A DNA stretch of 31,596 nucleotides from a virus. Lineage: Duplodnaviria; Heunggongvirae; Uroviricota; Caudoviricetes. Position numbers and translations under genes: made by a program. The stretch lies in the IMG/VR virus record IMGVR_UViG_3300034091_000309. One strand, 5' to 3'. The notes under the pieces are model-generated. The model had not been told where the DNA came from. It saw nothing but the letters and a program-made list of their open reading frames with translations, and made no database searches. Shown here piece after piece: positions 1,576-31,349 of this stretch (position 1 is the first letter of the stretch; each line of letters starts with the position of its first letter).

Positions 1576-1611
1576 CGCCCCATCAATGAAGACCTGTCGA
1601 TGGGGAGCCCG
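1576..1611 (+). repeat. 36-nt REP-like hairpin repeat, copy 1 (intergenic)
   Basis: cg-cccc-atcaat-gaagacct-gtcgat-gggg-agccc-g; fits consensus CACCCC-N6-N8-N6'-GGGGACCCCG. Confidence 0.75.
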
Positions 1612-1644
1612 AGGATCACTTTGATGGCGCAAAAAGTATTGATT

Positions 1645-1709
1645 GAGCAACATGCCCTCCCTTGAAGGGAACCAGCAATGGCTCAAGCCAGGAAATGGCT
1701 TGGGCCATT
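1645..1709 (+). promoter_or_regulatory. two-hairpin leader motif, copy A
   Basis: gagcaacatgc, then small hairpin tccc/ggga, then 13-bp stem aatggctcaagcc/ggcttgggccatt with a GAAA-containing loop. Related to 4533-4616 and 8682-8746. Confidence 0.6.
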
Positions 1710-1735
1710 TCCATTTTCGCTCCCAGAGGCGCAGT

Positions 1736-2086
1736 TTGGAAGTTCTTCCCGATTCGCGATGCAGGGCGCCGAAGGGCATGATTCGGACGGCAGGGGTGAA
1801 TTATGTGCCGATCTTCTGCATGAACTGTGGAAGGCCGGGAGGATTGGTCTCAGAGCGCGGAGTGAACTTCGTGGGCTGGATGTGCGATGCCTGCCAGGAG
1901 AAGTACCCGCTTTTGCCGGGAACCTATGCCGTCCCCGATACCGCCTTCCAGCGCCAGGTGGAGGCGGAGATGGTGGAGAAGCATGGGCGCATTCTCACCG
2001 CCCAAGAGATTGCGGAAGCGCTAAAAGATGAACGCAGCTCGCTGGCGCGGCTGGCCAAGGATCGTCCCGTTTTCGGGAAGAACTAA
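1736..2086 (+). CDS. small Zn-binding protein (CxxC...CxxC), ~116 aa
   Basis: Part of ORF 1643..2086. TTG start at 1736 chosen because a gagg RBS precedes it and the upstream part is occupied by the hairpin motif. Motifs FCMNCG and MCDAC. Confidence 0.65.
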   Translation: MEVLPDSRCRAPKGMIRTAGVNYVPIFCMNCGRPGGLVSERGVNFVGWMCDACQEKYPLLPGTYAVPDTAFQRQVEAEMVEKHGRILTAQEIAEALKDERSSLARLAKDRPVFGKN

Positions 2087-2097
2087 GGAGAAACGTT

Positions 2098-2583
2098 ATG
2101 GCTCAATGCGTCTATGTGGATGGACTGGCAACGCCGGGAAACTTCACAACCAGCGGGTCGGCAAACACGGAAGTCGATGCGATTTATTTTAAGGCCTCCG
2201 CTTCCGGGGGAAGCGTGAACCTGCTGAGGATCGACTGCGGCGGCAAGAGTTCCGGGTTGACCACTCTGACCAGCATCGAACTGCGGGTGAGAACTTATGG
2301 CACAGGATCGACGAGCGGGACGGCGGCTTCCATCGTGCCGGTCGACCCGGCAATCCAGGCGGCGACCCATACCGCCTTCACGGGAGGCACGGCGGGCAGC
2401 ACTCCGAAGTACATGATGAGCCTCGTCATGGGCGCGACAGGGCCCGGCTCATGGTTTGCGCTGAATCCCGACATGGCTCCGAAGCTGGCGCCGGCCAGCA
2501 CTACGGCGTCGCTGGACATTCTTTCCACGTCCGGTGGAACCTCGCTGCCTTTTGTTCTCACGGCGCAGGTCGCTGAACTGTAA
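2098..2583 (+). CDS. putative accessory virion protein (161 aa, T/S/A/G-rich)
   Basis: RBS aaggag upstream; beta-rich composition; operon context. Confidence 0.7.
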   Translation: MAQCVYVDGLATPGNFTTSGSANTEVDAIYFKASASGGSVNLLRIDCGGKSSGLTTLTSIELRVRTYGTGSTSGTAASIVPVDPAIQAATHTAFTGGTAGSTPKYMMSLVMGATGPGSWFALNPDMAPKLAPASTTASLDILSTSGGTSLPFVLTAQVAEL

Positions 2584-2594
2584 CCGGAGATTGA

Positions 2595-3626
2595 ATGCCG
2601 ACATCTACCACCATCCCGATCACGCCAGGTAGCGGAATCAACCTTGACGCCGAACAGCTCACGGTTGGTTCCAATACCGTTGCGCGCGAGAACATCTGCA
2701 TTGCGGACCCGACTGCGGCGGCGAACATTGCCGGAGTAACCGCCGCGGGGCAATTGATCGTCACCAGCAGTTCTTCCGAGATCATCGATCCGAATAACTC
2801 ATCAACCGCTCTTTTGGGAGCCAACGGAGTTTTCACCGGAACCTTTACTGTCGCGACGGGATTCGCTTCTCTGGCGGTGGAGGTGGACACCGACCAGCTC
2901 AGCGCCAACACTTCAACGACCGGTCTGGTGGTGCAATGGTCGGAGGACGGTGTCAATGTCGGCGACGCCGATATTGCTTACATTCTTGCCCAAGACCTTA
3001 TTACGTCGACTTTGGGCGGCCAGACCTATGTTTTTCCTGTGAAGCGCCCGTATTACAGCATCCAGTACACGAACGGCGCAACCGCGCAGACGGTCTTTCG
3101 GCTGCAATGCATCCTGAAGGTCGCGCCGATTGTTGGCGCGTTGACGGACCTGGGCGACGAGATTACCGGCAATATGCACAGCAGCTTGGTCCGCAACCTT
3201 TCGTTTGGCCGGCAGGCGGGCGGCAGTTCCACTTTCCAGGATTTTACGGTAAAGGCGGCATCGACGGCGGCCGTTGCCACCGATCCTGCGCTCGTGGTCG
3301 CAGTCAGCCCGAATAACACCGTTAGCGTGTCGGATGTGGCATCTGCTTCCGCGGGGAACGCCCCAGCGATTATTTCCATTGCGACAAGTTCTACGACGGT
3401 GCTGGCCTCGAACGCAGCGAGAAAAGGCTGCAACCTGATGAACATGAGCAACGAGACGATCAGCTTGGCCTTCGGCAGCAACGCCGCCGTGCTTTACAGC
3501 GGAGCGACGCTGGGACCGGGCGGGGCGTTCTGGATGGATGCGTTTGACTTCACCACCGCCGCCATCAACGCGATCAGCACCAACGTAGCCCAGGGCGGGT
3601 ATCTGGGTGTGCAGGAGTATCAATAA
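2595..3626 (+). CDS. putative accessory virion protein (343 aa)
   Basis: RBS ggag. T/S/A/V-rich. C-terminal domain resembles the 5361..5654 product. Confidence 0.7.
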   Translation: MPTSTTIPITPGSGINLDAEQLTVGSNTVARENICIADPTAAANIAGVTAAGQLIVTSSSSEIIDPNNSSTALLGANGVFTGTFTVATGFASLAVEVDTDQLSANTSTTGLVVQWSEDGVNVGDADIAYILAQDLITSTLGGQTYVFPVKRPYYSIQYTNGATAQTVFRLQCILKVAPIVGALTDLGDEITGNMHSSLVRNLSFGRQAGGSSTFQDFTVKAASTAAVATDPALVVAVSPNNTVSVSDVASASAGNAPAIISIATSSTTVLASNAARKGCNLMNMSNETISLAFGSNAAVLYSGATLGPGGAFWMDAFDFTTAAINAISTNVAQGGYLGVQEYQ

Positions 3627-8634: not shown

Positions 8635-8671
8635 CAGCCCAGCGAACAGAAATCGTTCGCCGGGGACCTCG
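8635..8671 (+). repeat. 37-nt REP-like hairpin repeat, copy 2 (intergenic, variant loop)
   Basis: cagcccagcgaac-agaaatc-gttcgccggggacctcg; most like the copy at 14158. Confidence 0.65.
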
Positions 8672-13958: not shown

Positions 13959-16900
13959 TGCCTGAGCCTCAACCCAAAAACGCGGAGCGCCGCAAACTCG
14001 TGAAGGTCAAAGATCTGGGCGTAGTCGCCTTCCCCTTTCACCTGTCCGACGATAAGATCGTTGCGGCCATCCGGACACATCGCGGGCAGACCCATGCCGC
14101 TCCTCCGCACTTCACGGGAAAGACAACGGAGGAGTCGGAACATGCGCGGTTAATGGCCACCCCACGAAGCAAAGATCGCTTCGCGGGGACCCCGGTAGCC
14201 AATGTGCCGCAGGTCACTCCCGATTGGAACACGCTACGCCAAGCGGTCTACAAGGCGACCGAGCCGGTGTTGATGAATCCCAATACCACGCCCACTGCGG
14301 ACACCTGGGCGGCGAATCGCGACGCCGCATGGAACGCGGCGGCCAACGCAGCCAATGTGGGAGGAAACGTTCTGAAGCGGGCCGGCCGCTTCATGTTTGG
14401 GTTGGTGGACTTGGTTCCGCAGGTGGTGGGGATCGTCAAGAACCTCTACTCCCCCGACGAGAGGGTCTCCGCGCAGGCCGAGGCTGATCTGCTGAGTCTG
14501 CATCCCGGCGCGCAGATCGCGGACCGGCTGAAAGAGGCGGTGCAGGATTGGCGTAGATCGAAGAGTTTGGCGGCGGAGAATCTGCTGGGCGATCTGCTGG
14601 GCTTTTACTTGGTGGGAAAGATTGGCGGGAAGGTTCCAGCCGCAGAAAAGGCACGATTGCAGCAGATGGGCGTCGTCCTGCCGCCGGAGGCGCCGGCGGA
14701 GCCTTTGGGACTGCCGGCGCCAGCCCCGCCAACGATTGAAGGAACTCTTTCACCCCACGGACGTGGACCTGTCCGTGGGGACCCCGGTTCGCTGCCCAAG
14801 CCGCCACGGCCGGCGCCATTGCCTTCGCCTGCCGGTCTGAGGCCGGTGGAAGTGACGGCCAATCTTTCACCCCAACGACGTGGACCTGTCGTTGGGGGCC
14901 CCGAACTACGGCTGACGCAGCCCAAGCCGGTGAGTTTGGCGGAGTTGCGCAAAGAGGCGGCGATGCGCAGACCGCAAGCGAAGGAGCAGCTCGTTGCGCA
15001 GCAGACTGCGAAGCCATGGAAAAAGAGCGGTGCCGAGTTGGGTACTCTCTACCACGGGAGCAAGGTAAAGGTTGGCGAGATCGATTTGGCTCAGGTGGGC
15101 CAGCGTGACTCTGGGCTCTATGGCCGTGGCTTCTACATGACGGAGAAGCCGAAGTGGGCGAAGACTTATGGGCCTAGAGTGACGGAGAAGCAGTTGAGAT
15201 CTGATGCGCAGGTACTCGACGTGGGCACGATCCATCCTCAGTACGAGCAGAAGGTCAACCCCGCATTGCAGACGGAAATCGAGGGAGTGGAACGGCAAGG
15301 ACTGCAACAAGCCAAGAACACTAAGGACCGGCCGGAGAAGATTGAAGGCTATCTGGAGATGATCCGGCCTCAGTCGCCGACCTTCAACCTGGGAATGTGG
15401 ATCGCGGCAGTGCATCGCTACGCTGAGATGAATGGTTACGATGTGATCCGTTTCAGCCCGGCGGAAGTGATTGTCAAGAATGCGAATGCGGTTCTGTCTG
15501 CACCAGCAGCCGTGGCAGCACCTGCGGCGATGCCAGCGACTGCACCTGTGCCATCGGCGATGCCAGTGACAGAACCAGCGCTGGCGGCGACACCAGTTCC
15601 TAAGCCGGCGGCGACACCAACGGCAGCACCAGCGGCGGCGGCACCCGTCGACGTGGCGATGAACCTGACGTACAAGGGAGCGGGCGGTACGCAGCCGTTC
15701 TATCTGAAGAGCGAGAAGCTGCTGGGCGAGAAGATGAAGGGGCCGATGCCGGCCGGCGATATTGCCAAGATGCTGTTGGCGAACGGTGTGAAGCCGGAAG
15801 AGATGAAGTGGACGGGGATGGAGGAGTTCCTCAAGGAGAAGGGCGAGGCCAAGGTGACGCCGGAGGAGATGCGGCAGCACTTGGCGGCAAACAACTTAGA
15901 GTTGAAAGAAGTAAGAAAGGGCGAAGGAAGCATAACGCTAAAACGGGCCGCTGACACCGCCTACGATAAATTCTATCAGTTAGCTGAGAAGGACTTTGGT
16001 CACGAGGCCGGAGCTATTGCGCGTGAAATTCAAGAGGGCGGTCAAAGTTCGCGCGAGATTATTGCGAAATGGATGAGGGATACTGGCCATGTGCCCGGCG
16101 AGATGCCATCTGATGATCTCTTAGAGGCTGCTCGGAACCTTTTTAATGCGCAGCGCACCTACGCAGAAGCTGAGGCCTACGGTGGACCAAAGTTCGGCAC
16201 CTGGGTTATGCCCGGTGGAGAGAACTACCGCGAGTTGCTGGTGACGTTGCCAGAGAACCAAATCACGGAGAGCGATCTGGCAAAGTATTTTGAACCGGGG
16301 AAAATCGTCGAGGGATATGCCGGCAAAGACAAAGTCATCGCGTTCCACCCATCAAGTGAACAGCGTTTATGGAGCGTAGATGTTATCCATGTGGATAATA
16401 ATGGAAATCCTCTCCCTGGGGAGCATGTGCGGAATCATGCAACGCAGCCAGACTTAAACAAGCTGGGCAAAACTAACTTCCGCACCTCTCACTGGGACGA
16501 GCCAAATGTACTCGGCCATGTGCGCTTCAATGACCGCACCGGGCCGAACGGGGAGAAGCTGCTGCACCTGGAGGAATTGCAGAGCGACTGGCACGAAAAA
16601 GGGAGAAAGGGCGGATACGGATCAATAGGCCCGCCCGATACGACAGGCTGGAAGGCAACAAAGACGGAAGATCATCCAGAGTCGTGGATTGTAGCTGATG
16701 CCTCTGGAGATCAGATTAGTATTGGTGGTCGCAATTTATTCTACGGCAGAACTGCTGAAGAAGCCATTGCTGATGCTGCTCGTATAAAGCAGACCGGAGC
16801 AGGCCGAGAGCTTCGTGTGCCCGATGCCCCGTTCAAGAAGACTTGGCCGGAGCTGCTGCTAAAGCGAATGATTCGCTACGCGGCGGAGAACGGCTATGAC

Positions 16901-18868
16901 GGCATCTCCTGGACTCCCGGCGAGGAGCAGGCGGAGCGGTATGATCTGAGCAAGCAAATTGATCGTGTAGCCTACCAGCCGAGAAGCGATAACCGCACAG
17001 CCCTCTGGATCACAGGGAAAAACGGGGAAGTTCTGCAAGACACCATCGGGGAGCGGATTCCGGGATCTAGTTGGGATGATAGTGAGAAGGCCATCGTCGT
17101 TCCGAACACCGCGCTGCCCGACCTAGTTGGCAAGGAACTCACCGAAAAGATTCAGAAGGGCGAAGGTGCGGACTCTTACGGAGGAGCCAAGATATTCAGT
17201 GGTCTCGACCTGAAAGTTGGCGGGGAGGGGATGAAGGGTTTCTACGACCAGATGCTGCCCATCATAGCTAACAAGATCGGCAAACCGTGGGACGCGAAGG
17301 TTGACAGCATAGACCTTGGCGGACGGCAGTTCCGCGTGGAACGGTCTCCGGATTTGTCCTACAGGATTATCGACAGCGATGGAGTGGACCTCACAGGGAA
17401 GAATTTCTTTGATACCAGATCAATGGCGCAACATTATGCTGATGAATTGCAGAAGGTTGAGCCTCCAGGCACTGTTCCCTACCTGCCCATCACGCCCCAG
17501 ATGCGAGAAGGCGTAACGGCGCAGCCACTGAGCCTCTTCAACTTGATCTACAAGGCGCCCCCCGCGAAGCCGGCGGAGATTGCCGATGCATGGAGGCAAC
17601 TGGGCGACATTCGAAACGAGTTGTACAAGATGCCGCCGCCGGAGGAGCCCGACCTGAGCACTCCGGAGAATATGCTGGCATGGAAGCATAGACATCAGGA
17701 ATGGCGCCAAAAGGCGCAACCCTGGCTGGACAAGTACCGGGCTGCAACTGGAAGAATCCAGTATCTGGAGAACCGGGAGATTGGAGAGGTTCGCGCCCTG
17801 CCGGACGGCCAGAAGGTGCTGTACCTGAGCGGATACGGATTGAGAACTCTGTGCGCGGGCATCCGCGCAGATGTTAATCCCGCGTACACGCTGAATGGAG
17901 CCTCGCTCACCGCGTGGGATGTGGAGGCGATCGGGAGAATTGCGGAGGCGATGGATCTGACCTTCGGCAAAGAGCTGCGAGAGCTGCTGGCGGTCGCCAA
18001 AGACAAGGATGGAAATGTCACCGTGGCCGCGATTCCGGAGAAGGGCCAGAGTCTGCGCGCGTCGCTGGGAGTTCTCCGGGAGGAGTTGAACCATACTTGG
18101 CAGAAACGTTTCGGGGATGTGGGGAGCGGGCATCTATCAGCGCAGCGCTTTGAAGAGTTGAATGCCGCCATTCCGCAAGGCATGATGGATGATCTGCGCC
18201 AGAACAGGTACAATATGGAGGCCAGCGAGAAGGGCAACCAGATACGTGTGCTGGAGACCAGCTCCAAGCTGCTGAGCGAGGCGCCAGCAAAATTCGGGTT
18301 GACGGAAGACGAAGCCGCCGTGTATCTCTTCCAGTATTTCGACGCCGTGGAAAAGGAACACGGGCCGAAGGCGCTGGAGCAACTGATCCACATCACGCGG
18401 CTCGGCAAGCAGATCAAGGAGGATTTCATCCATGGAAGGCAGGGGACCGGCGGAGGAGCAGAAGATCGAGGAACTTTGGGCCGCGTACAAGAGCGGGGGG
18501 CTAGCCGGGATCAAGGAGGTCCTTCGCCGGCGAGACGAGGAGCACCTGAAGGAGAAGGCACCGCAGGAGGTGGGGCCACCGGCCCAGGCATAACGCTGAA
18601 TCTGCAGCAGCAGATGACGCCGGTGGCGACCGGGGTTGCAATCCACGGCGTTCGCGCTGACGCGGACAAGGTAGTGAACATCCTAGAAGGCGCGAAGAAG
18701 CGCAACCCCCTACCCGTGGGGAGCAACCTGCCGGCCGCGATACACCCCGCCGACGTGGACCTGTCGGCGGGGACCCCGGCCGCGCCCAAGCCCATCAAGA
18801 CACTCTGGGAACTCCGGCAAGAGGCCACGCGGCGCCGGCCGCACGAGCAAACAAAAATCATGAAATGA
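13955..18868 (+). CDS. giant internal virion / polyvalent-type protein (1637 aa) with an ADP-ribosyltransferase-like domain
   Basis: ATGA overlap. ART-like YHG...GLYGRGFYMT...A..Y...E at ~15040-15490. Motif series HLEELQSDW / PDAPF / GYDGI / GMKGFYD. Degenerate zincin-like LREELNH near 18075. Confidence 0.7.
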   Translation: MMPEPQPKNAERRKLVKVKDLGVVAFPFHLSDDKIVAAIRTHRGQTHAAPPHFTGKTTEESEHARLMATPRSKDRFAGTPVANVPQVTPDWNTLRQAVYKATEPVLMNPNTTPTADTWAANRDAAWNAAANAANVGGNVLKRAGRFMFGLVDLVPQVVGIVKNLYSPDERVSAQAEADLLSLHPGAQIADRLKEAVQDWRRSKSLAAENLLGDLLGFYLVGKIGGKVPAAEKARLQQMGVVLPPEAPAEPLGLPAPAPPTIEGTLSPHGRGPVRGDPGSLPKPPRPAPLPSPAGLRPVEVTANLSPQRRGPVVGGPELRLTQPKPVSLAELRKEAAMRRPQAKEQLVAQQTAKPWKKSGAELGTLYHGSKVKVGEIDLAQVGQRDSGLYGRGFYMTEKPKWAKTYGPRVTEKQLRSDAQVLDVGTIHPQYEQKVNPALQTEIEGVERQGLQQAKNTKDRPEKIEGYLEMIRPQSPTFNLGMWIAAVHRYAEMNGYDVIRFSPAEVIVKNANAVLSAPAAVAAPAAMPATAPVPSAMPVTEPALAATPVPKPAATPTAAPAAAAPVDVAMNLTYKGAGGTQPFYLKSEKLLGEKMKGPMPAGDIAKMLLANGVKPEEMKWTGMEEFLKEKGEAKVTPEEMRQHLAANNLELKEVRKGEGSITLKRAADTAYDKFYQLAEKDFGHEAGAIAREIQEGGQSSREIIAKWMRDTGHVPGEMPSDDLLEAARNLFNAQRTYAEAEAYGGPKFGTWVMPGGENYRELLVTLPENQITESDLAKYFEPGKIVEGYAGKDKVIAFHPSSEQRLWSVDVIHVDNNGNPLPGEHVRNHATQPDLNKLGKTNFRTSHWDEPNVLGHVRFNDRTGPNGEKLLHLEELQSDWHEKGRKGGYGSIGPPDTTGWKATKTEDHPESWIVADASGDQISIGGRNLFYGRTAEEAIADAARIKQTGAGRELRVPDAPFKKTWPELLLKRMIRYAAENGYDGISWTPGEEQAERYDLSKQIDRVAYQPRSDNRTALWITGKNGEVLQDTIGERIPGSSWDDSEKAIVVPNTALPDLVGKELTEKIQKGEGADSYGGAKIFSGLDLKVGGEGMKGFYDQMLPIIANKIGKPWDAKVDSIDLGGRQFRVERSPDLSYRIIDSDGVDLTGKNFFDTRSMAQHYADELQKVEPPGTVPYLPITPQMREGVTAQPLSLFNLIYKAPPAKPAEIADAWRQLGDIRNELYKMPPPEEPDLSTPENMLAWKHRHQEWRQKAQPWLDKYRAATGRIQYLENREIGEVRALPDGQKVLYLSGYGLRTLCAGIRADVNPAYTLNGASLTAWDVEAIGRIAEAMDLTFGKELRELLAVAKDKDGNVTVAAIPEKGQSLRASLGVLREELNHTWQKRFGDVGSGHLSAQRFEELNAAIPQGMMDDLRQNRYNMEASEKGNQIRVLETSSKLLSEAPAKFGLTEDEAAVYLFQYFDAVEKEHGPKALEQLIHITRLGKQIKEDFIHGRQGTGGGAEDRGTLGRVQERGASRDQGGPSPARRGAPEGEGTAGGGATGPGITLNLQQQMTPVATGVAIHGVRADADKVVNILEGAKKRNPLPVGSNLPAAIHPADVDLSAGTPAAPKPIKTLWELRQEATRRRPHEQTKIMK
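14158..14194 (+). repeat. 37-nt REP-like repeat, copy 3 (in CDS, reads TPRSKDRFAGTP)
   Basis: caccccacgaagc-aaagatc-gcttcgcggggaccccg. Confidence 0.8.
14751..14786 (+). repeat. 36-nt REP-like repeat, copy 4 (in CDS, reads PHGRGPVRGDP)
   Basis: Perfect 10-bp stem ccccacggac/gtccgtgggg, loop gtggacct, tail acccc. Confidence 0.9.
14868..14903 (+). repeat. 36-nt REP-like repeat, copy 5 (in CDS, reads PQRRGPVVGGP)
   Basis: Perfect stem ccccaacgac/gtcgttgggg, loop gtggacct. Confidence 0.9.
18743..18778 (+). repeat. 36-nt REP-like repeat, copy 6 (in CDS, reads HPADVDLSAGTP)
   Basis: Perfect stem ccccgccgac/gtcggcgggg, loop gtggacct. Confidence 0.9.
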
Positions 18869-20584: not shown

Positions 20585-20620
20585 CACCCCAGCGACAAAG
20601 GCCTATCACTGGGGACTCCG
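20585..20620 (+). repeat. 36-nt REP-like repeat, copy 7 (intergenic)
   Basis: cacccc-agcgac-aaaggcct-atcact-gggg-actcc-g; two stem mismatches. Confidence 0.75.
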
Positions 20621-21422: not shown

Positions 21423-21458
21423 CGGGGTTCCCACGGACAGGTCCAAGTCCGTGGGGTG
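21423..21458 (-). repeat. 36-nt REP-like repeat, copy 8 (minus strand)
   Basis: Reverse complement reads cacccc-acggac-ttggacct-gtccgt-ggga-acccc-g. Confidence 0.85.
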
Positions 21459-21611: not shown

Positions 21612-21647
21612 CACCCCGCAGACGAAGGCCTGTCTGCGGGGATCTCG
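21612..21647 (+). repeat. 36-nt REP-like repeat, copy 9
   Basis: Perfect stem ccccgcagac/gtctgcgggg, loop gaaggcct, tail atctc. Confidence 0.85.
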
Positions 21648-24551: not shown

Positions 24552-24620
24552 GATGGTATCATTGCACTTGGGGCGCGACGGGCGCAAATATAAAAAATAA
24601 GCAGAAAGCAAGGGGCGCGA

Positions 24621-25869: not shown

Positions 25870-26057
25870 AGATGACAATCGAAACCAAAGAGGATTTGGA
25901 ACTTTATCTCAAACGCAAAACCGAGGAGACGTTAGCGGAAATGGAAGAAATTCGTAAAGAGAATGGTTGGGAATCTGCCGAAGAGTTTCTGAAAGAGTTG
26001 GAGGCGGCGAAGTTCGATCCGCAAAAAGTGTACCCTTGGGAAAAGCCGGACCGGTGA
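25866..26057 (+). CDS. hypothetical protein (63 aa, E/K-rich)
   Basis: Coupled to the previous gene; an alternative ATG is at 25872. Confidence 0.55.
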   Translation: MKMTIETKEDLELYLKRKTEETLAEMEEIRKENGWESAEEFLKELEAAKFDPQKVYPWEKPDR

Positions 26058-26094
26058 CTGCCCACCATCCGCTGATTACTGTAAGCTGGTTTCC

Positions 26095-26610: not shown

Positions 26611-26983
26611 AGAACGAAAAACCGTAGGCCAGTTTACCGCATTCGTAGGCAGACGGATCAAAACCAGGCGCAAGGCGCAGAAAATGACGCAGGAAGAACT
26701 GGCGCGGAAGATCGGCGTCAGCGTTCCAATTCTGCATGAGATGGAATGCGGGACGAGACACATTAACTTGGAGCGGTTGATACGGTTCGTGCGTCACCTT
26801 ACGACGACCAGCGATCTGCTGGGACTGCCGCATTACGGCGAAGAGGAGATCTTCGATTTCATCGACAAGAAGATCAGAGCCATGAGCGAAGAGGACCTGC
26901 GCAAGTGGAAAAGCGATCCCGGCCCGGCTTCAACTGACAGGCGGCGTTTGTACATCCTTGACAGCGATTCGGAACAGGAGTAG
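26603..26983 (+). CDS. XRE/Cro-CI family helix-turn-helix regulator (126 aa)
   Basis: IKTRRKAQKMTQEELARKIGVSVPILHEMECG. ATG at 26603 overlaps the end of the HNH gene. Confidence 0.8.
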   Translation: MREERKTVGQFTAFVGRRIKTRRKAQKMTQEELARKIGVSVPILHEMECGTRHINLERLIRFVRHLTTTSDLLGLPHYGEEEIFDFIDKKIRAMSEEDLRKWKSDPGPASTDRRRLYILDSDSEQE

Positions 26984-27034
26984 AGTGGTTTCCATGAAGC
27001 AGTTATCGCTCAGTTCGACCCTGTCATCCAATGC

Positions 27035-27070
27035 CACCCCGCAGACGAAGACCTATCTGCGGGGACCCCG
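27035..27070 (+). repeat. 36-nt REP-like repeat, copy 10
   Basis: cacccc-gcagac-gaagacct-atctgc-gggg-acccc-g. Confidence 0.85.
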
Positions 27071-27117
27071 GTATGGGGAGGGGTCTGTCTGAGCGATCTG
27101 CAGTTCGTCTGGACGCG

Positions 27118-27148
27118 ACCCCGGCCAACCAGCCGGGGTTTTCATTTT
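27118..27148 (+). terminator. putative intrinsic terminator
   Basis: 8-bp stem accccggc/gccggggt, loop caacca, tail tttcatttt. Confidence 0.55.
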
Positions 27149-27149
27149 C

Positions 27150-27185
27150 CACCCCAGCGACGAGAACCTGTCGCCGGGGGCTCCG
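27150..27185 (+). repeat. 36-nt REP-like repeat, copy 11
   Basis: cacccc-agcgac-gagaacct-gtcgcc-gggg-gctcc-g. Confidence 0.85.
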
Positions 27186-27193
27186 GATTTTGT

Positions 27194-27276
27194 GCGCACA
27201 TGGCGGAACCGGCAGACGCAGCGGCCCTAAAAGCCGCGGGGAAACCGTGGGGGTTCAACTCCCTCCACGGGCACCA
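27194..27276 (+). tRNA. degenerate tRNA-Leu(TAA), probable pseudo-tRNA
   Basis: Leu-type D arm (tggcggaaccggcagacgca), AC stem gcggc/gccgc with loop cc-TAA-aa, variable arm, T loop ttcaact and encoded CCA. Acceptor strands gcgcaca/cacgggc pair at only 3 of 7 positions. Confidence 0.6.
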
Positions 27277-27282
27277 AGATTC

Positions 27283-27366
27283 GCCGATGTGGTGGAACTG
27301 GCAGACACACCGTCCTCAAAAGGCGGCGCCCAAGGCATAGGGGTTCGATCCCCCTCGTCGGCACCA
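27283..27366 (+). tRNA. tRNA-Leu(CAA)
   Basis: Acceptor gccgatg/cgtcggc, loop ct-CAA-aa, variable arm, T loop ttcgatc, CCA. Confidence 0.93.
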
Positions 27367-27388
27367 GAGGTTGGAGTATAAAGGGAAG

Positions 27389-27562
27389 ATGAAAAAGAAA
27401 TCGGAGGGGCAGGATCAGAAACTGCCCAGCGGGAAATGGGTCCAACGAGTACCGAGGAGTCTGCATTTGAAGTTGATTCTGTTGGCGAGAGCGGAGGGAG
27501 TCAGTCTGAACCATCTGGTCGTATCGTTTCTCGCGGAGATGGTTGGAAGAAAGCGCAAATAG
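27389..27562 (+). CDS. stand-alone HicB-like ribbon-helix-helix protein (57 aa)
   Basis: SGKWVQRVPRSLHLKLILLARAEGVSLNHLV matches the HicB C-terminal RHH pattern. No HicA gene adjacent. Confidence 0.7.
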   Translation: MKKKSEGQDQKLPSGKWVQRVPRSLHLKLILLARAEGVSLNHLVVSFLAEMVGRKRK

Positions 27563-27567
27563 GAGAG

Positions 27568-27791
27568 TTGGGAGTGCCTAAAGCGGGCGACACTGTATTT
27601 CGGATGTTTGCCGAGTCGTGGAAATGCCGCTGGTCGTCAGCTCAGTGACGGCGGATAGGATCGTATGCGGAGCTTGGCAGTTCGATCAAAGAACCGGGGC
27701 CGAGGTCGACGATGGTCTTGATTGGGGTCCGCCGCCGAAGAGGACGGGCAGCTTTTTGAGGCGTAGGGATGGAGAGATTGAAGTGAAGTGA
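27568..27791 (+). pseudogene. small hypothetical gene apparently split by a 1-nt frameshift (or an intact 55-aa CDS 27624..27791)
   Basis: RBS ggag plus TTG/GTG start gives VPKAGDTVFRMFA. The -1 frame continues (G)VVEMPLVVSSVTADRIVCGAWQFDQRTGAEVDDGLDWGP to TGA at 27789-27791. Confidence 0.45.
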
Positions 27792-27803
27792 AAGAGTTTC
27801 CGC

Positions 27804-27896
27804 GGAGCGTTGGCCGAGTCCGGTTTAAGGCACCTCACTGCTAACGAGGCGTGACCATAAAAGGCACCGTGCGTTCAAATCGCACACGCTCCGCCA
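27804..27896 (+). tRNA. tRNA-Ser(GCT)
   Basis: Acceptor ggagcgt/acgctcc, loop ct-GCT-aa, long variable arm, G discriminator, CCA. Confidence 0.92.
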
Positions 27897-27910
27897 GATC
27901 AGAGTACGCG

Positions 27911-28111
27911 ATGCAGCATTGGGTATTGGAAACCGTCAAATGCAAACCTTGCGGCAAGGTGAGCTATGAGAGCCGCGAAGATGCGGAGTACGCAGCTCAG
28001 AGCCAGATGCCGGCGCAGCTTCCGTATGAATGCCCTTACGGAAACGGGTGGCACCTGAGTACCGTTCGGAAGCGTGGGCGAGTGGTTTATGCCAGCAGTC
28101 CCGAAAACTGA
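27911..28111 (+). CDS. small Cys/His Zn-finger protein (66 aa) overlapping tRNA-Ser(CGA)
   Basis: CKPCGKVSYESREDA...YECPYGNGWHLST. Stop TGA at 28109-28111 lies inside the tRNA. Confidence 0.6.
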   Translation: MQHWVLETVKCKPCGKVSYESREDAEYAAQSQMPAQLPYECPYGNGWHLSTVRKRGRVVYASSPEN

Positions 28112-28160
28112 AGCGTCCTGGAAATAGGCGCCGTAGGTTCGAATCCTACCGCTTCCGCCA
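28068..28160 (+). tRNA. tRNA-Ser(CGA)
   Basis: Acceptor ggaagcg/cgcttcc, loop cc-CGA-aa (C33), long variable arm, T loop ttcgaat, GCCA. Confidence 0.9.
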
Positions 28161-28165
28161 ATCTT

Positions 28166-28230
28166 ATAGGGGGAGATTGCTTGTACTGCACCTGCATGAT
28201 GAGCAAACCCTCATCTGGCACTCCCCCTAT
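28166..28230 (+). ncRNA. candidate small structured RNA between tRNAs
   Basis: Perfect 10-bp closing stem atagggggag/ctccccctat enclosing a gatgag/ctcatc hairpin; no convincing ORF. Confidence 0.35.
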
Positions 28231-28268
28231 GGCTGCATCATGAGGCAGTCCTGAATGAAGTTTAACAT

Positions 28269-28359
28269 GCATGTGTGGCTCAGTGGCGACGGCGGCAGTC
28301 TGTAGAACTGCTACCCTTTGTGGTAAACACCGGAGGTTCGACTCCTTCCACATGCACCA
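28269..28359 (+). tRNA. tRNA-Tyr(GTA)
   Basis: Acceptor gcatgtg/cacatgc, AC stem gcagt/actgc, loop ct-GTA-ga, variable arm, CCA. Confidence 0.9.
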
Positions 28360-28362
28360 AGT

Positions 28363-28398
28363 TACCCCGCCGATATGGGCCGATCAGCGGGGACCCCA
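28363..28398 (+). repeat. 36-nt REP-like repeat, copy 12 (3 nt after tRNA-Tyr)
   Basis: tacccc-gccgat-atgggccg-atcagc-gggg-acccc. Confidence 0.75.
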
Positions 28399-28426
28399 TC
28401 AAGCCAGCATTATACAATGGGGAACC

Positions 28427-28729
28427 ATGGCGAAGCCGGTTCCCAACTGGAAGCTGATCGACTGCCCCAAGTGCGGTAGCCTGCGGGGCCGGGACTGCTT
28501 TGTCGAGCAGATTGACCAGTTCTGCTGCCCGGAGCGCCAAGCGGCGGCCGGGATAGGGAGAAAAGTTTTGCGGCTGCCGCTCAACCTCAAGAACCCCGGA
28601 AAGAATCCGACACATAAATGCAGAATGCACAATCATAAGCAATGCAGCGGATATCACCACGGCAACCACGGCTTGCCCGGCCTGAAGTGCACCTGCAGTT
28701 GCCACCGCAGGTGGCGGCAAGCTCTATGA
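28427..28729 (+). CDS. Cys/His-rich Zn-finger protein (100 aa)
   Basis: CPKCG...C...CCPER and HKCRMHNHKQC...KCTCSCH. Confidence 0.55.
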   Translation: MAKPVPNWKLIDCPKCGSLRGRDCFVEQIDQFCCPERQAAAGIGRKVLRLPLNLKNPGKNPTHKCRMHNHKQCSGYHHGNHGLPGLKCTCSCHRRWRQAL

Positions 28730-28752
28730 TATATTGCGGGCATGGAGGCACC

Positions 28753-28965
28753 ATGCCACTGGGACCGGGGAAGTACGATGAGTTGTGCACCAAGGTGCGC
28801 GAGGAAACCAACGCGGATACGGTGCTGCTCATTGTTTTGGGCGGAGTGAAGGGCTCCGGATTTTCCATGCAGACGGTAACCATGAAGATCTCGGTGCTGG
28901 TGCCAGCGATCTTGCGCGACACCGCTGACCAGATTGAGGCCTCTTTGAAAACGGGCAAAATATGA
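28753..28965 (+). CDS. hypothetical protein (70 aa)
   Basis: RBS ggagg. MPLGPGKYDELCTKVREETNA... Confidence 0.7.
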   Translation: MPLGPGKYDELCTKVREETNADTVLLIVLGGVKGSGFSMQTVTMKISVLVPAILRDTADQIEASLKTGKI

Positions 28966-29051
28966 CCGTTTCAGAAAATCGGGGAATCCACCGACAGATT
29001 CACGTCGGCGGGGTGAAAATCGGTGATATGCTTCCGTTCGGGAGGATATTT

Positions 29052-29783
29052 ATGAAAGACAATGCGATGCAGATCGCGCTGATTTTGGACCGTTCCGGAT
29101 CAATGAGTACAATCGCGGGAGCAACGGTGGAGGGGGTCAATGCTTTCCTTGCCGAGCAGAAGAACTCGCCCACGGATGTTTCCATCCGGTTCGTGCAGTT
29201 CGACGACGTGTACGAAGAAGTGTATGACGGAAAAATCAATGATGCTCCCCTACTGACGCTTTCAGAGCCGACAGAGAAGAGCCAGAAGCAATTCGTGCCG
29301 CGCGGCTGGACGGCGCTGCTGGATGCGATCGGCACGACGATCACCGACGTGGGGAAACGGCTCAACGATATGCCAGAGTCGGAACGCCCCGACAAGGTAG
29401 TGATCGTCATCATGACGGACGGGATCGAAAACGCCAGCAAACAGTACAGCATGGAACGGATCTCGGAGATGATCCAGACGCAGCGCGACGTGTACAAGTG
29501 GCAGTTTCAGTTCTTGGCCGCCAACCAGGATGCGATCGCCACGGCGAGCAAGATGAGCATTCCCATGAACAATGCCATCACCTTCAACGCATCGGCGGCG
29601 GGAACGCGGAACGTGGTGCGCGCCGCATCGCGCAATGTCCGCAATTTCGCCGCAACCGGCCAAGCGGCGACGATGAGCTACATGCCGGAGGATCGCGCCA
29701 AGGCGATGGAAGAAGATGAGCCGGCGTCCCACCCCAGCCGCCAAGACCTGCGGCCGGGGACCCCGGTGCCGGCAAAACCGTGA
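29052..29783 (+). CDS. von Willebrand factor A (vWA) domain protein (243 aa)
   Basis: MIDAS DRSGSM, TALLDAIG, IVIMTDGIEN. RBS ggagg before ATG 29052; an alternative coupled start is at 28962. Confidence 0.85.
   Translation: MKDNAMQIALILDRSGSMSTIAGATVEGVNAFLAEQKNSPTDVSIRFVQFDDVYEEVYDGKINDAPLLTLSEPTEKSQKQFVPRGWTALLDAIGTTITDVGKRLNDMPESERPDKVVIVIMTDGIENASKQYSMERISEMIQTQRDVYKWQFQFLAANQDAIATASKMSIPMNNAITFNASAAGTRNVVRAASRNVRNFAATGQAATMSYMPEDRAKAMEEDEPASHPSRQDLRPGTPVPAKP
29730..29765 (+). repeat. 36-nt REP-like repeat, copy 13 (in CDS tail, reads HPSRQDLRPGTP)
   Basis: cacccc-agccgc-caagacct-gcggcc-gggg-acccc-g. Confidence 0.85.
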
Positions 29784-29789
29784 TACACT
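29781..29789 (+). promoter_or_regulatory. putative extended -10 promoter for tRNA-fMet
   Basis: TG-a-TACACT ends 7 nt before the tRNA 5' end. Confidence 0.35.
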
Positions 29790-29795
29790 TGGCCT

Positions 29796-29872
29796 CGCGG
29801 GGTGGAGCAGCCCGGTAGCTCGCTAGGCTCATAACCTGGAGGCCGCAGGTTCAAATCCTGCCCCCGCAACCA
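29796..29872 (+). tRNA. initiator tRNA-fMet(CAT)
   Basis: cgcggggtggagcagcccggtagctcg..., C1:A72 mismatch, loop ct-CAT-aa, CCA. Confidence 0.92.
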
Positions 29873-29939
29873 AGTCACCCTTCCGCGTCCTCAACTCTGC
29901 AATGCGCTTAAAATGCGCCTTCTGTGTTAAAGTAAGGTG

Positions 29940-30280
29940 TGTAAGGAGTCGATGGACTCCCTGGAGAGCGCTATGCGAAAGACGGGCGGTCAGTAAGCAA
30001 TGTTCGGTCTGGGTCAGAAAAAGCCGACGTACAGGTTGTGGCAGTCAGCCTGGCCGCGCAAGCGGCAAAAACGTGGCGCAAGCCTTTGGCCATAGGAGCG
30101 CGGCGGCCGACCGAAAGGATAGTCCTCCGCAGCCAGTGGAACTCGAAAGACGCCAAGACCCTGCGGTGTAGCAGCCGTAAACGCCGGGATAGAGAACTTG
30201 CGGTTGGCGCTATGGTCCCGGACAAGGAGAGGAAAGCTGGCGGGGGTTGCGGCTCAACCTCTGGCCCGAAAAATTCGGGA
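29940..30280 (+). ncRNA. candidate large structured ncRNA 1
   Basis: ORF-poor with many hairpins, two with clear GCAA tetraloops plus GAAA loops; extended -10 TG-t-TAAAGT at 29925-29933. Confidence 0.45.
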
Positions 30281-30286
30281 GTGTTT

Positions 30287-30490
30287 ATGCCTTGGATCAT
30301 TCGCTGGTTGATCTGCCGCGAGTATCGGATTCGTAGGGACTGGATTCTCAGTGAACGCAGGACTGATTACCGGGAGCGTCGGCTACTGCACATGATCCTT
30401 GGGTATAAACCGGGCGATGTATACTTTCATTGCCACTGTGGCAGGTATTCAGACAGTTCAAGATTGTGCCCTGAACACAAAGTTGGTTGA
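30287..30490 (+). CDS. hypothetical protein (67 aa)
   Basis: RBS gggag. MPWIIRWLICRE...HCHCG...C. Confidence 0.55.
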   Translation: MPWIIRWLICREYRIRRDWILSERRTDYRERRLLHMILGYKPGDVYFHCHCGRYSDSSRLCPEHKVG

Positions 30491-30497
30491 ATTTCGC

Positions 30498-30573
30498 GGA
30501 CCCGTCGTCTAGCGGCTAGGACGCCACCCTGTCGAGGTGAAAGGCGCCGGTTCAAATCCGGTCGGGTCCGCCA
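30498..30573 (+). tRNA. tRNA-Asp(GTC)
   Basis: Acceptor ggacccg/cgggtcc, loop ct-GTC-ga, T loop ttcaaat, GCCA. Confidence 0.9.
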
Positions 30574-30577
30574 AGTT

Positions 30578-30925
30578 GGGTGCATCGAGGGATACTGGCC
30601 ACCGAGGAGCAAAGGCGGCCGGGAAGAGAATATCCGATGTGGAGCGGGTACGGAGACTCGGCGACGATCCTTTACTGAAGGGTAATTGAGAGGCGTCTTA
30701 AAGCCACGCTCTAGGCAAAGCCTCGATGCGGCAGTATGCACCTAGAGAGCGGGGTCGTCGCTTTTGTCACTCCTTGCTCGGTAGGGACGATGCACCCATC
30801 AAGTTGCAGCCGGCTGTGGTGCCACGCGAGATGTGTGGACGCTTTGCTCAGAGATGAGCTACGAGCCTGAATCACCGGCTGCAAGAACTTCCCGGCGCTA
30901 TGGTGCGGAGGGAGAGCCTCCGACA
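30578..30925 (+). ncRNA. candidate large structured ncRNA 2
   Basis: Nested long-range stems 30578-30797, second domain 30804-30884, terminal hairpin 30906-30922; no convincing plus-strand ORF. Confidence 0.55.
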
Positions 30926-30976
30926 AACAAAACTGCTTTGTGGACGAAACACGCCGGGAAGACTTTAAGGTAGGCG

Positions 30977-31312
30977 ATGGAGATTTGCGATTTCTGCAGT
31001 TCGCCGCGGGTGGTCAAACGCTTCGAGTGCATGGATTTCGACAGCGCATCGGAGGATGCCGGAGTGCTCTATGCAGATGCCGGTGCGCCCGATGGACAGA
31101 CGAACTTGGTTTTGGCCAGCAAGGATTTCTGGGCAGCCTGTGAACCATGCCGGATTCTGGTAGAGACCGAAAACATTGATGGCCTAGTGAAGCGAGCGAT
31201 GGAGGAATTCGAGCGGCAGGAGGGATGGTCACATTCGCAACGTACAAGGGCAGAGCGGCATCTGCGGCGGACATACCAACTATTTTTTCAGAATCGCATT
31301 AGGATAGGTTAA
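30977..31312 (+). CDS. Zn-binding hypothetical protein (111 aa)
   Basis: RBS aaggtagg. CDFC...WAACEPC. Confidence 0.7.
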   Translation: MEICDFCSSPRVVKRFECMDFDSASEDAGVLYADAGAPDGQTNLVLASKDFWAACEPCRILVETENIDGLVKRAMEEFERQEGWSHSQRTRAERHLRRTYQLFFQNRIRIG

Positions 31313-31313
31313 G

Positions 31314-31349
31314 CGGGGTCCCCACGGACAGCTCTACGTCCGTGGGGTG
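31314..31349 (-). repeat. 36-nt REP-like repeat, copy 14 (minus strand, 5 nt before tRNA-Glu)
   Basis: Reverse complement reads cacccc-acggac-gtagagct-gtccgt-gggg-acccc-g. Confidence 0.88.

What the first reader, a model, noticed from the sequence alone, without database searches (positions are those of the whole stretch)
1576..31349. Dense family of 36-37-nt REP-like hairpin elements (14 copies) with compensatory stem changes
Seen: consensus CACCCC-N6-loop8-N6'-GGGG-ACCCC-G at 1576, 8635, 14158, 14751, 14868, 18743, 20585, 21423(-), 21612, 27035, 27150, 28363, 29730 and 31314(-). The 6-nt arms change but stay complementary: acggac/gtccgt, aacgac/gtcgtt, gccgac/gtcggc, gcagac/gtctgc, agcgac/gtcgcc, agccgc/gcggcc. 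The C4/G4 clamp, the GGGGACCCC mini-palindrome and the loop ending (mostly CCT) are conserved. This covariation means structure, not just sequence, is maintained. Known: REP/REPIN elements are hairpins mobilised by RAYT HUH transposases and are mainly described from chromosomes. No HUH transposase is visible here. Inference: a non-autonomous mobile hairpin, probably host-derived, has colonised a phage at about one copy per 2.3 kb. I recall similar HPTDxDLSxGTP peptides in Acidobacteria proteins, but this is unverified.
Basis: partly seen in the sequence, partly recalled or inferred. Interest (0 to 1): 0.85.

Follow-up and report, generated by a model that had tools for sequence, protein, structure and literature searches.

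The report
Tiny mobile hairpin invades a phage
A 36-base DNA hairpin that jumps around soil Acidobacteriaceae genomes has multiplied to about 60 copies in one peat phage, between genes and in frame inside them; its relatives have almost none, so it is selfish mobile DNA and not a phage control signal.

Summary
All 14 copies are real, plus one weak relic. The complete 134-kb phage genome has 51-63 copies, and stem covariation is strong.

It is not a conserved phage signal. Four complete related phages have 0 copies and one has 4. About 1 Mb of 80 related phage loci has none. Orthologous junctions and homologous proteins in relatives are "empty".

Copies are flanked by short direct repeats of the target (2-10 nt). 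They nest inside each other and form 42-44-nt tandem arrays in hosts. The same element occurs in Acidobacteriaceae genomes at 0-25 per Mb, against 231 per Mb in the phage.

Two new points:
- Copies sit with the CACCCC strand on the G-rich strand whatever the local gene direction, in the phage and in the most colonised host. This points to insertion tied to replication.

The REP/RAYT reading fails its tests: target duplications, no GTAG/CGTC tag, no RAYT in the phage and no REPtron. The mobilising enzyme is unknown.

An earlier report of this scan (e1-1859271) reached the same core reading on the neighbouring window of this genome.

The parts
1576..1611 (+). Degenerate copy (CGCCCC...GGGGAGCCCG), intergenic. 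It lies 3 nt after the stop of ORF 742-1572 and 40 nt before the next ORF.
   Evidence: Sequence; R1 41.2 bits; context.
8635..8671 (+). Degenerate copy of the 9-nt-loop subtype, intergenic between ORFs 7717-8553 and 8701-9333.
   Evidence: R1 34.5 bits.
14158..14194 (+). Copy of the 9-nt-loop subtype, inserted in frame in the 1637-aa gene 13955-18868 (aa 68-80).
   Evidence: R1 47.8 bits. The homologue in related phage G007 has a 10-residue gap exactly here.
14751..14786 (+). Canonical copy, in frame (second reading frame, peptide SPHGRGPVRGDP) in gene 13955-18868.
   Evidence: R1 62.4 bits, the best in the window; translation.
14868..14903 (+). Canonical copy, in frame (same frame as 14751) in gene 13955-18868.
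   Evidence: R1 58.1 bits.
18743..18778 (+). Copy in frame (peptide HPADVDLSAGTP) near the C-terminus of gene 13955-18868, flanked by the direct repeat GCCGCG.
   Evidence: R1 55.3 bits; flanking repeat; translation.
20585..20620 (+). Copy at the 5' edge of the minus-strand ORF 19910-20587. It keeps the genome-wide + orientation although the local gene is on the minus strand.
   Evidence: R1 42.7 bits; context.
21423..21458 (-). One of the few reverse-oriented copies, intergenic, 22 nt from ORF 21161-21400(-).
   Evidence: R1 52.4 bits.
21612..21647 (+). Copy with a degenerate tail (GGGGATCTCG), intergenic.
   Evidence: R1 42 bits.
27035..27070 (+). Intergenic copy 51 nt after ORF 26603-26983, at the head of the tRNA array.
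   Evidence: R1 56.3 bits.
27150..27185 (+). Copy placed directly after a terminator-like hairpin plus T-run and 7 nt before tRNA-Leu (27193), flanked by ATTTT on both sides.
   Evidence: R1 51.5 bits; flanks; tRNA.
28363..28398 (+). Degenerate copy (TACCCC...ACCCCA) starting 3 nt after the 3' end of tRNA-Tyr (28359), flanked by CAAG.
   Evidence: R1 38.1 bits.
29730..29765 (+). Copy in frame (peptide HPSRQDLRPGTP) 18 nt before the stop of ORF 28962-29783, flanked by GCCGGC.
   Evidence: R1 48.6 bits.
31314..31349 (-). Reverse-oriented copy between ORF 30977-31312 and tRNA-Glu (31355).
   Evidence: R1 55.7 bits.
28976..29019 (-).
   Evidence: R1 26.2 bits, E 1e-5. Not examined further.

Best explanation
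The repeats are copies of a 36-37-bp non-autonomous transposable hairpin that belongs to soil Acidobacteriaceae. In this one phage lineage (a 134-kb, integrase-encoding phage from peat) it has amplified to about 55-63 copies.

Shown:
- It inserts into otherwise conserved DNA.
- It duplicates a few target bases, 2-10 nt in the phage and mostly 4-6 nt (up to 8) in hosts.
- It lands between genes, after terminators and tRNAs, inside other copies, and in frame inside genes, where it is stop-free and becomes 8-20 extra residues.
- The stem is kept by compensatory change.
- Copies lie with the CACCCC strand on the G-rich strand whatever the local gene direction.

Inferred:
- The mobile intermediate is a single-stranded hairpin handled at the replication fork.
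- The enzyme is supplied in trans by the host and is not a recognisable RAYT.
- The copies need no function for the phage. They persist because they are tolerated.
For: Burst confined to one lineage:
- R1 finds 63 copies here, 4 in complete relative G005 and 0 in complete relatives G006-G009.
- It finds only 2 weak partial hits in 1.02 Mb of 80 related phage loci whose marker protein is 67-84% identical.

Empty sites:
- At G000:C1 ~116,722, 12 of 14 relatives go from stop codon to ribosome-binding site and start codon within 9-32 nt. Here the element sits between two copies of ACGGCGTAAG.
- The same holds at ~118,193 (repeat GCGTAAG), ~118,020 and ~50,253.
- Homologous proteins in relatives lack the inserted 8-20 residues in five genes.

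Target duplications:
- In the phage, flanking repeats of 6 nt or more occur in 13 of 51 copies against 3.9 expected, and of 8 nt or more in 4 against 0.4.
- In hosts the figures are 27 of 118 against 9.6, many as abutting 6-mers.
- Nested copies occur in the phage and in host G378.
- Host tandem arrays of 42-44 nt equal element plus duplication.

Host origin:
- 120 or more genome hits are almost all Acidobacteriaceae.
- 86 of 401 family genomes carry the element, at most 25 per Mb, against 231 per Mb in the phage.

Structure:
- Covariation is strong.
- A.C/C.A pairs number 23 against 3 G.T/T.G in the phage, and 13 against 3 among distinct host arm types.
- The complement strand is more stable in 35 of 51 copies, p = 2e-5.

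Strand polarity:
- The phage has 45 copies in one orientation and 6 in the other, kept in minus-strand gene blocks.
- In G378, all 36 sampled copies in long same-orientation runs lie on the G-rich strand (GC skew -0.06 to -0.28), while local genes are 49 minus and 41 plus.
- In G350, 17 of 20 copies are co-oriented with the leading strand as inferred from dnaA.

No mobilising gene in the phage:
- No PF01797 in six frames.
- No transposase or reverse transcriptase among 40 phage-specific proteins.
Against: - No mobilising enzyme was identified, so 'transposable' rests on comparative anatomy only.
- No empty allele was seen in the phage population. Contigs from three independent peat samples match the window with no differences, and contigs cannot show rare variants.
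- Duplication length is variable, and 0-4 extra bases sit at the joints. This is odd for a classical transposase.
- Replichore polarity is absent in G327 (7 of 16) and G334 (11 of 23). G334 copies mostly ride inside IS21- and IS3-family elements.
- GC skew is only a proxy for replication direction in the phage, whose genes are mostly co-oriented.
- Two RAYT-like genes (L162 in G003, L331 in G378) each have one copy within 100 nt, so a Y1 enzyme is not excluded.
- Relative G005 has a diverged hairpin at the same site as the copy at G000:C1 ~31,485. A few copies may therefore be old or may have been co-opted.
Confidence: 0.72

Rival explanations
1. One reading: a classical REP/REPIN mobilised in trans by a host RAYT (Y1 HUH) transposase acting on single-stranded DNA.
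For: - It is a small GC-rich hairpin whose conserved foot and loop contrast with a variable, covarying stem.
- One strand is selected for folding.
- Replication-strand polarity recalls IS200/IS605 (Ton-Hoang 2010, cited in PMC3116915).
- Two RAYT-like genes carry one copy within 100 nt, with the folding strand on the gene's sense strand: P0001 in L162, with HVH and YVVNNP motifs, and L331 984-1517. By my rough estimate two such adjacencies by chance have a probability near 1e-3.
- Acidobacteria are known to hold atypical Y1 enzymes with their own hairpins (PMC6006769, PMC3733652).
Against: - Target-site duplications are present, and Y1 ssDNA transposition makes none.
- There is no GTAG or CGTC tag.
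- No gene is flanked on both sides.
- 12 Y1 loci in four high-copy genomes and 20 orthologues of P0001 have no copy within 1.5 kb, and no CCC...GGG hairpin of the element's kind either.
- Close P0001 orthologues are missing from the high-copy genomes.
- G334 has 23 exact copies and no PF01797.
- The L331 protein has ENVH where the HUH motif should be.
- Other Y1 genes in the same genomes are flanked by different hairpin families.
- The better-folding strand lies on the leading-strand template, the opposite of the IS608 rule.
Confidence: 0.15
2. A minimal MITE: the two arms are terminal inverted repeats, and a host DDE-type transposase cuts and pastes the element as double-stranded DNA.
For: - There are inverted arms with conserved outer CCCC/GGGG and short target duplications of roughly constant size in hosts, often 6 bp abutting the core.
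- Nesting and bursts are typical of MITEs.
- Some DDE systems insert with a bias relative to replication (Tn7 TnsE pathway; my own knowledge).
Against: - The inner arms vary freely while staying complementary, and the asymmetry of A.C over G.T shows selection on one folded strand. A double-strand-binding transposase would not impose this.
- The element is asymmetric, with an ACCCCG tail at one end only.
- At 36 bp it is far below known MITE sizes.
- No autonomous partner with matching ends was found. The IS21- and IS3-family elements in G334 carry a copy internally, not at their ends.
- The duplication length ranges from 2 to 10 nt.
Confidence: 0.15
3. A functional phage signal, such as a terminator, mRNA stabiliser, processing site or protein-binding site, kept by selection in this phage.
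For: - Copies are strongly co-oriented with most genes (45 to 6).
- They are enriched between genes: 31 of 51 against about 18% of the sequence being non-coding by my crude gene calls.
- Many sit 0-3 nt after stop codons or 14-45 nt before starts.
- One site is shared with relative G005 as a diverged hairpin.
Against: - The element is absent from four complete relatives and from 1 Mb of related loci that share gene order.
- No T-run follows the hairpin, and true terminator-like hairpins with T-runs lie immediately upstream of at least six copies.
- The better-folding strand is antisense to most genes.
- Orientation does not flip in minus-strand gene blocks.
- At least 11 copies lie inside coding sequence in three frames and antisense.
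- Proximity to stop codons is explained by duplications that include the stop codon.
- No Rfam family matches.
Confidence: 0.06

Closest known systems
REP / REPIN elements with RAYT (Y1 HUH) transposases (PMC3116915, PMC3333891, PMC3733652)
   Same: - Short, GC-rich hairpin in high copy number, mostly between genes.
- Structure kept by compensatory change, with a conserved foot next to a variable stem.
- Likely single-strand biology.
- Hosts from a phylum known to have atypical Y1 enzymes with cognate hairpins (PMC6006769).
   Different: - Makes target-site duplications.
- Has no GTAG or CGTC tag.
- Occurs as singlets, tandem arrays and nested copies, not as REPIN doublets.
- No REPtron was found.
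- Frequent in-frame insertion in genes.
- Far denser in a phage than in any cell genome examined.
Bacterial MITEs (for example Correia/NEMIS; reviewed in PMC3184786)
   Same: - Non-autonomous, with inverted arms and target-site duplication.
- Bursts, nesting and insertion near gene ends.
   Different: - Several times smaller (36 bp).
- Arms vary with compensation.
- One strand is selected for folding.
- Duplication length is variable.
- No parent IS was found.
Rickettsia palindromic elements
   Same: A palindromic selfish repeat that inserts in frame into protein-coding genes and is tolerated as an extra peptide segment.
   Different: - RPEs are about 100-150 bp and confined to Rickettsia.
- This element is 36 bp, stop-free in all frames examined, and found in Acidobacteriaceae and their phages.
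Small dispersed repeats (SDR) of Nostocaceae (Elhai et al. 2008, Genome Res 18:1484; paper not held, recalled and seen cited in PMC5861425 and PMC3116915)
   Same: - Very small (21-27 nt) mobile repeats recognised by filled versus empty sites and by insertion into one another.
- No known enzyme.
   Different: - Different phylum and sequence.
- I could not check whether SDRs make target duplications or show strand polarity.
Mobile elements recognised in phage genomes by filled/empty comparison (mycobacteriophage MPMEs; my own knowledge)
   Same: A small non-autonomous element detected in some members of a phage group and absent at the same site in relatives.
   Different: MPMEs are about 440 bp, occur in one or a few copies per genome, and carry a small gene. 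This element has about 60 copies of a 36-bp hairpin.

Membership tests
REP/REPIN-RAYT | Short GC-rich imperfect palindrome, highly repeated, mainly extragenic | tested here: met
   There are 51-63 copies in 134 kb, and 31 of 51 lie between predicted genes. The hairpin has 10 bp plus a loop of 8-9 nt. About 20 of 51 lie in predicted ORFs.
REP/REPIN-RAYT | Conserved GTAG or CGTC tetranucleotide tag at one end (PMC3733652) | tested here: not met
   The alignment of 51 copies shows ends CACCCC and GGGGACCCCG. Neither tag appears on either strand.
REP/REPIN-RAYT | Cognate RAYT gene flanked by the same hairpins (REPtron) | tested here: not met
   - No PF01797 in the phage.
- No R1 hit near 32 host Y1 loci.
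- Only single-sided adjacency at L162 and L331.
- G334 has copies but no Y1 gene.
REP/REPIN-RAYT | Insertion without target-site duplication (IS200/IS605-type ssDNA mechanism) | tested here: not met
   Flanking direct repeats are far above control in the phage and in hosts. They are single-copy in relatives at the empty sites.
MITE | Terminal inverted repeats plus target-site duplication | tested here: met
   The arms are 10-bp inverted repeats, and duplications of 2-10 nt are present.
MITE | Autonomous IS in the same genomes with matching ends | tested here: inconclusive
   The IS21- and IS3-family elements of G334 contain a copy internally, not as their ends. No systematic search of all IS ends was possible.
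Intrinsic terminator | GC-rich hairpin immediately followed by a T/U run on the transcribed strand | tested here: not met
   The hairpin is followed by ACCCCG and then unrelated sequence. Separate hairpin-plus-T-run structures precede at least six copies.
Conserved phage regulatory site (stoperator-like or leader-like) | Same positions kept in related phages | tested here: not met
   Complete relatives have 0-4 copies, and related syntenic loci have none. Junctions are empty.
Rfam RNA families | Match to a curated covariance model | tested here: not met
   Only tRNAs pass at gathering score. Nothing relevant appears at E up to 10 on a stretch with three copies.

The most novel reading that the evidence does not exclude
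The element represents an undescribed way of moving DNA. A free single-stranded hairpin of about 36 nt (the CGGGGT...GGGGTG strand) is spliced into the nascent lagging strand at the replication fork, for example between an extended Okazaki fragment and the displaced flap of the next one. This would explain three things together: the variable 2-10-nt duplication with a few stray bases at the joints, the selection for folding on one strand only, and the strict placement of that strand opposite the G-rich leading strand in the phage and in actively colonised hosts. It would need no transposase of any known family. It would also explain why a fast-replicating phage genome accumulates copies about 10-1000 times faster than the chromosome.
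Probability: 0.15. Interest if true: 0.85.

Novelty: new variant of a known kind. Interest (0 to 1): 0.62.

Why it matters
If the reading is right, this is among the smallest elements shown by comparative evidence to transpose with target duplication. It moves between bacterial chromosomes and a virus, and it rewrites phage proteins by adding stop-free peptide inserts. Four inserts in three reading frames sit in one 1,637-residue protein that gives a weak match to a phage endolysin family.

The phage offers a compact natural record: about 60 dated insertions against empty-site relatives. From it, target choice, strand rule and boundaries can be read. Those features do not fit RAYT-driven REPs, so they point to an enzyme or fork-linked process still to be found in Acidobacteriaceae, a dominant but poorly studied soil group.

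Practical consequences:
- The element breaks metagenome assemblies at each copy.
- It creates look-alike peptides (HPxDxDLSxGTP and others) that can mislead protein clustering.
- It is a sequence link between this phage and Acidobacteriaceae hosts.

Tried and rejected
- RNA evidence: no RNA holder is listed for the stretch, so nothing can be said about expression.
- Population polymorphism: contigs of four peat runs were laid on window 13000-31596. The three independent samples that hold most of the stretch (X3-X5) carry it with no differences in the listed contigs. Contigs end at the copies and no empty allele was seen. The joints listed link one copy to another or come from other organisms' arrays. 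Contigs cannot show rare variants.
- Prophage search: the 697-aa marker protein was not found in five element-rich host genomes.
- Candidate enzyme in the phage: Pfam scans of 40 proteins without homologues in the relatives, plus 10 large proteins, gave no transposase, nuclease-integrase or reverse transcriptase apart from the phage integrase. PHROGs gave almost nothing for window proteins.
- RAYT correlation: close orthologues of the L162 RAYT-like protein occur in 27 of 401 family genomes, and only 8 of those 27 have any exact copy. This count includes G011, an unpublished genome. G034, also unpublished, appears only among distant matches. No claim depends on either.
- Replichore polarity did not appear in G327 and G334.
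- IS21- and IS3-family elements of G334 were considered as mobilisers and rejected. Three unrelated IS types each carry a copy internally, so they are carriers.
- Whole-genome blastn against relatives aligned only 5-15% of the genome, so junctions were compared through flanking proteins. Only three intergenic regions (four copies) and five genes were comparable.
- The scan's look-up by sequence returned nothing.
- Elhai et al. 2008 is not held.
- Searches for the peptide strings and for phage MITEs found no description of this element.
- The first PHROGs call failed because I gave wrong coordinates.

Full report
**What the window is.** The window is the reverse strand of G000:C1:66434-98029 (window position w equals genome position 98030 - w). 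G000 is a single 134,250-bp IMG/VR virus record with direct terminal repeats, rated complete. The window holds eight tRNA genes. Elsewhere the genome encodes an integrase, an N6/N4 DNA methylase, a TROVE/Ro60-like protein and many proteins without family matches. Peat metagenomes hold the same sequence.

**Observation.**
- All 14 listed sites carry CACCCC-N6-loop-N6'-GGGG-ACCCCG. A strict pattern matches 7 times against 0.01 expected.
- Across the genome I found 51 good copies by pattern. I aligned them (A1) and built covariance model R1.
- On A1, 91% of cells pair against 76% in shuffles. Double changes number 75 against 27. The covariation score is 0.378 against 0.122 (0/500), and every slid control collapses.
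- Rfam has no matching family.

**Not a coding motif and not a terminator.**
- Copies occur in all three frames and on both strands, and 31 of 51 lie between my predicted genes.
- No T-run follows the hairpin. In at least six places a separate hairpin-plus-T-run lies immediately upstream, with the junction reading TTTC-CACCCC.
- Four copies in the genome start within a few bases of a tRNA 3' end.

**Where else it occurs.**
Thirty other viral contigs have 1-4 copies each.
- With the pattern ACCCC-N20-21-GGGGACCCC the phage has 31 matches (231 per Mb). Four host-type genomes have 1-30 matches, or 0.2-6 per Mb.
- In a sample of 401 genomes of that family, 86 have at least one match, and the maximum is 104 in 4.2 Mb (G378, 25 per Mb).
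- Between host genomes the inner stem and loop differ while ACCCC...GGGGACCCC is kept, so this is a superfamily.
- Hosts also carry tandem arrays with a 42-44-nt period. One example is six units in frame inside a CoaE-like gene in L096.
- When contigs of peat runs were laid on the window, the bins with copies reached summed depths of about 56-710 against about 0-18 elsewhere. The element is therefore abundant in the community.

**Mobility.**
- A 697-aa phage protein has at least 146 relatives in IMG/VR at 67-84% identity. R1 finds only two weak partial hits in 1.02 Mb around 80 of them.
- Of five complete or near-complete relatives (121-143 kb), one has 4 copies and four have none.
- At the junction at genome ~116,722, 12 of 14 relatives run from stop codon to ribosome-binding site and start within 9-32 nt. 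This phage has the element between two copies of ACGGCGTAAG.
- At ~118,193 the duplicated target is GCGTAAG, which is single-copy in relatives. At ~118,020 and ~50,253 the relatives are again empty.
- Inside genes, homologues in relatives lack 8-20 residues exactly where the element sits. This holds for the genes at window-frame coordinates 79700-80527, 84735-85043, 49155-50279 (antisense copy), the DnaB-like gene 57106-58581, and the window's own 13955-18868.
- That 1,637-residue gene holds four inserts in three reading frames.

**Target duplication.**
- Comparing 22 nt on each side, repeats of 6 nt or more flank 13 of 51 phage copies against 3.9 expected from mismatched pairs. Repeats of 8 nt or more flank 4 against 0.4. 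They lie within 0-4 nt of the core.
- In 118 solitary host copies, repeats of 6 nt or more flank 27 against 9.6 expected. Many are abutting 6-mers such as GTGAGC, GTTGAC and GATTTC. G378 copies show the same pattern with 4-6 nt.
- Three phage copies are inserted in the 3' arm of another copy with a 2-nt duplication. G378 has the same nesting repeatedly.
- A unit of element plus 6-nt duplication explains the 42-nt arrays.

**Which strand folds.**
- Among non-Watson-Crick stem positions on the CACCCC strand, A.C or C.A occur 23 times and G.T or T.G 3 times. In the clamp alone the count is 6 to 0.
- Among distinct host arm combinations the ratio is 13 to 3.
- An A.C on one strand is a G.T wobble on the other, so the selected fold is that of 5'-CGGGGT-CCCC-...-GGGG-TG.
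- Its predicted hairpin is more stable in 35 of 51 copies, with mean -17.8 against -16.2 kcal/mol and p = 2e-5.
- Host copies show no consistent orientation relative to genes: 15 against 15 in tandem contexts. Strand-biased mutation is therefore an unlikely cause.

**Strand polarity.**
- In the phage, 45 copies face one way and 6 the other. The common orientation is kept next to or inside minus-strand genes (7 against 2).
- The CACCCC strand is the G-rich strand over the whole genome (skew +0.02 to +0.13).
- In G378 the copies form long runs of one orientation, for example 27 in a row over 580 kb. All 36 copies in 20 sampled stretches lie on the G-rich strand (skew -0.06 to -0.28), while local genes are 49 minus and 41 plus. 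Contexts relative to genes are mixed.
- In G350, 17 of 20 copies follow the leading strand as inferred from dnaA. G327 and G334 show no polarity.
- In G334 most identical copies sit inside multi-copy IS21- and IS3-family elements that merely carry them.
- I infer that insertion is tied to fork direction. The folding strand ends up opposite the G-rich strand, that is, with the sequence of the nascent lagging strand.

**The RAYT question.**
- The phage has no Y1 gene in any frame.
- Host Y1 genes are flanked by other hairpin families.
- R1 finds nothing within 1.5 kb of 12 Y1 genes in four element-rich genomes or of 20 orthologues of the RAYT-like protein P0001.
- P0001 orthologues do not track copy number, and G334 has no Y1 gene.
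- Against this, P0001 (L162) has one copy 60 nt upstream. A RAYT-like gene with a degenerate HUH motif in G378 (L331) has one composite copy 17 nt downstream.
- Together with the target duplications and the missing tag, I rate the RAYT reading at 0.15.

**Mechanism, as far as it goes.**
- Shown: insertion with duplication, nesting, strand-specific fold, genome-strand polarity, absence from relatives.
- Inferred: a single-stranded hairpin intermediate acting at the fork, and an enzyme supplied by the host.
- Speculative: ligation of the hairpin into the nascent lagging strand at an Okazaki junction (see the novel case).
- I see no need for a phage function. One site shared with G005 as a diverged hairpin leaves room for occasional co-option.

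**Comparison and novelty.**
- The element works like REP/REPINs in its hairpin, single-strand and polarity features. It works like MITEs in its duplication, bursts and nesting, and like RPEs in its in-frame inserts. It fails defining tests of the first two.
- Searches of the held literature found no description.
- An earlier report of this scan on the neighbouring window of the same genome (e1-1859271) reached the same core reading of a mobile hairpin from Acidobacteriaceae with in-frame inserts. The present work adds the empty-site relatives, the duplications, the folding strand, the polarity and the RAYT tests.

**Unpublished genomes.** G011 and G034 appear only in the counts.

Noticed in passing
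window 27193-31429: Array of eight tRNA genes (Leu x2, Ser x2, Tyr, Met, Asp, Glu) interleaved with element copies. In the genome as a whole, four copies start within a few bases of a tRNA 3' end.
   Followed up: partly
G000:C1 about 117,990-118,090 and the same junction in L169-L185, G005: A conserved motif of about 75 nt precedes late genes in this phage and its relatives. It ends in a terminator-like hairpin (ATGGCTCAAGACC...GGCTTGAGCCAT followed by a T-rich run). Element copies have landed directly behind it. It matches the leader RNA described in earlier scan notes e1-5429420 and e1-5437123.
   Followed up: partly
G000:C1 57,908-59,353 (outside the window): TROVE/Ro60-like protein with a vWA domain next to tRNA-like genes (Pfam). 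It was already reported by the scan (e1-1859270).
   Followed up: no
G000:C1 37,627-39,402 (outside the window): In the N6/N4 DNA methylase, the Pfam domain is split into two stretches spanning residues 17-440. Two element copies lie inside the intervening segment (aa 303-367).
   Followed up: partly
L159, L160, L314, L317, L319; L165: Other hairpin families flank Y1-transposase genes in the same Acidobacteriaceae. One is CCCCATTCATCGCG-N7-CGCGATGAGTGGG, up to four copies around one gene. Another is CCCAGGTGCCC...GGCACCTGGG, three copies. These look like true REPtrons.
   Followed up: partly
L320-L325 (G334:C1): Identical element copies sit inside multi-copy IS21-family (IstA/IstB) and IS3-family elements that are 98-100% identical to one another. 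The hairpin hitch-hikes on larger transposons.
   Followed up: yes
L327, L328, L331, L334, L335, L341, L342, L344, L345 (G378): A composite repeat occurs at least 12 times: the element is enclosed by an outer inverted repeat (GTGGCTTTTTCTTC ... GCGGAAAAAGCCAC). L162 shows a similar outer stem (GCCGGTCTCC / GGAGACCGGC).
   Followed up: partly
L096 3688-3930: Six tandem 42-nt units of the element lie in frame inside a dephospho-CoA kinase-like gene of a Terracidiphilus MAG. They add a 14-residue repeat six times.
   Followed up: partly
G005:C1:34991-35016 versus G000:C1 ~31,485: A related phage has a diverged hairpin without the ACCCCG tail at the same position, after the stop codon of the orthologous gene. 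It is either an old shared insertion kept as a hairpin or a repeatedly hit site.
   Followed up: partly
   Followed up: no
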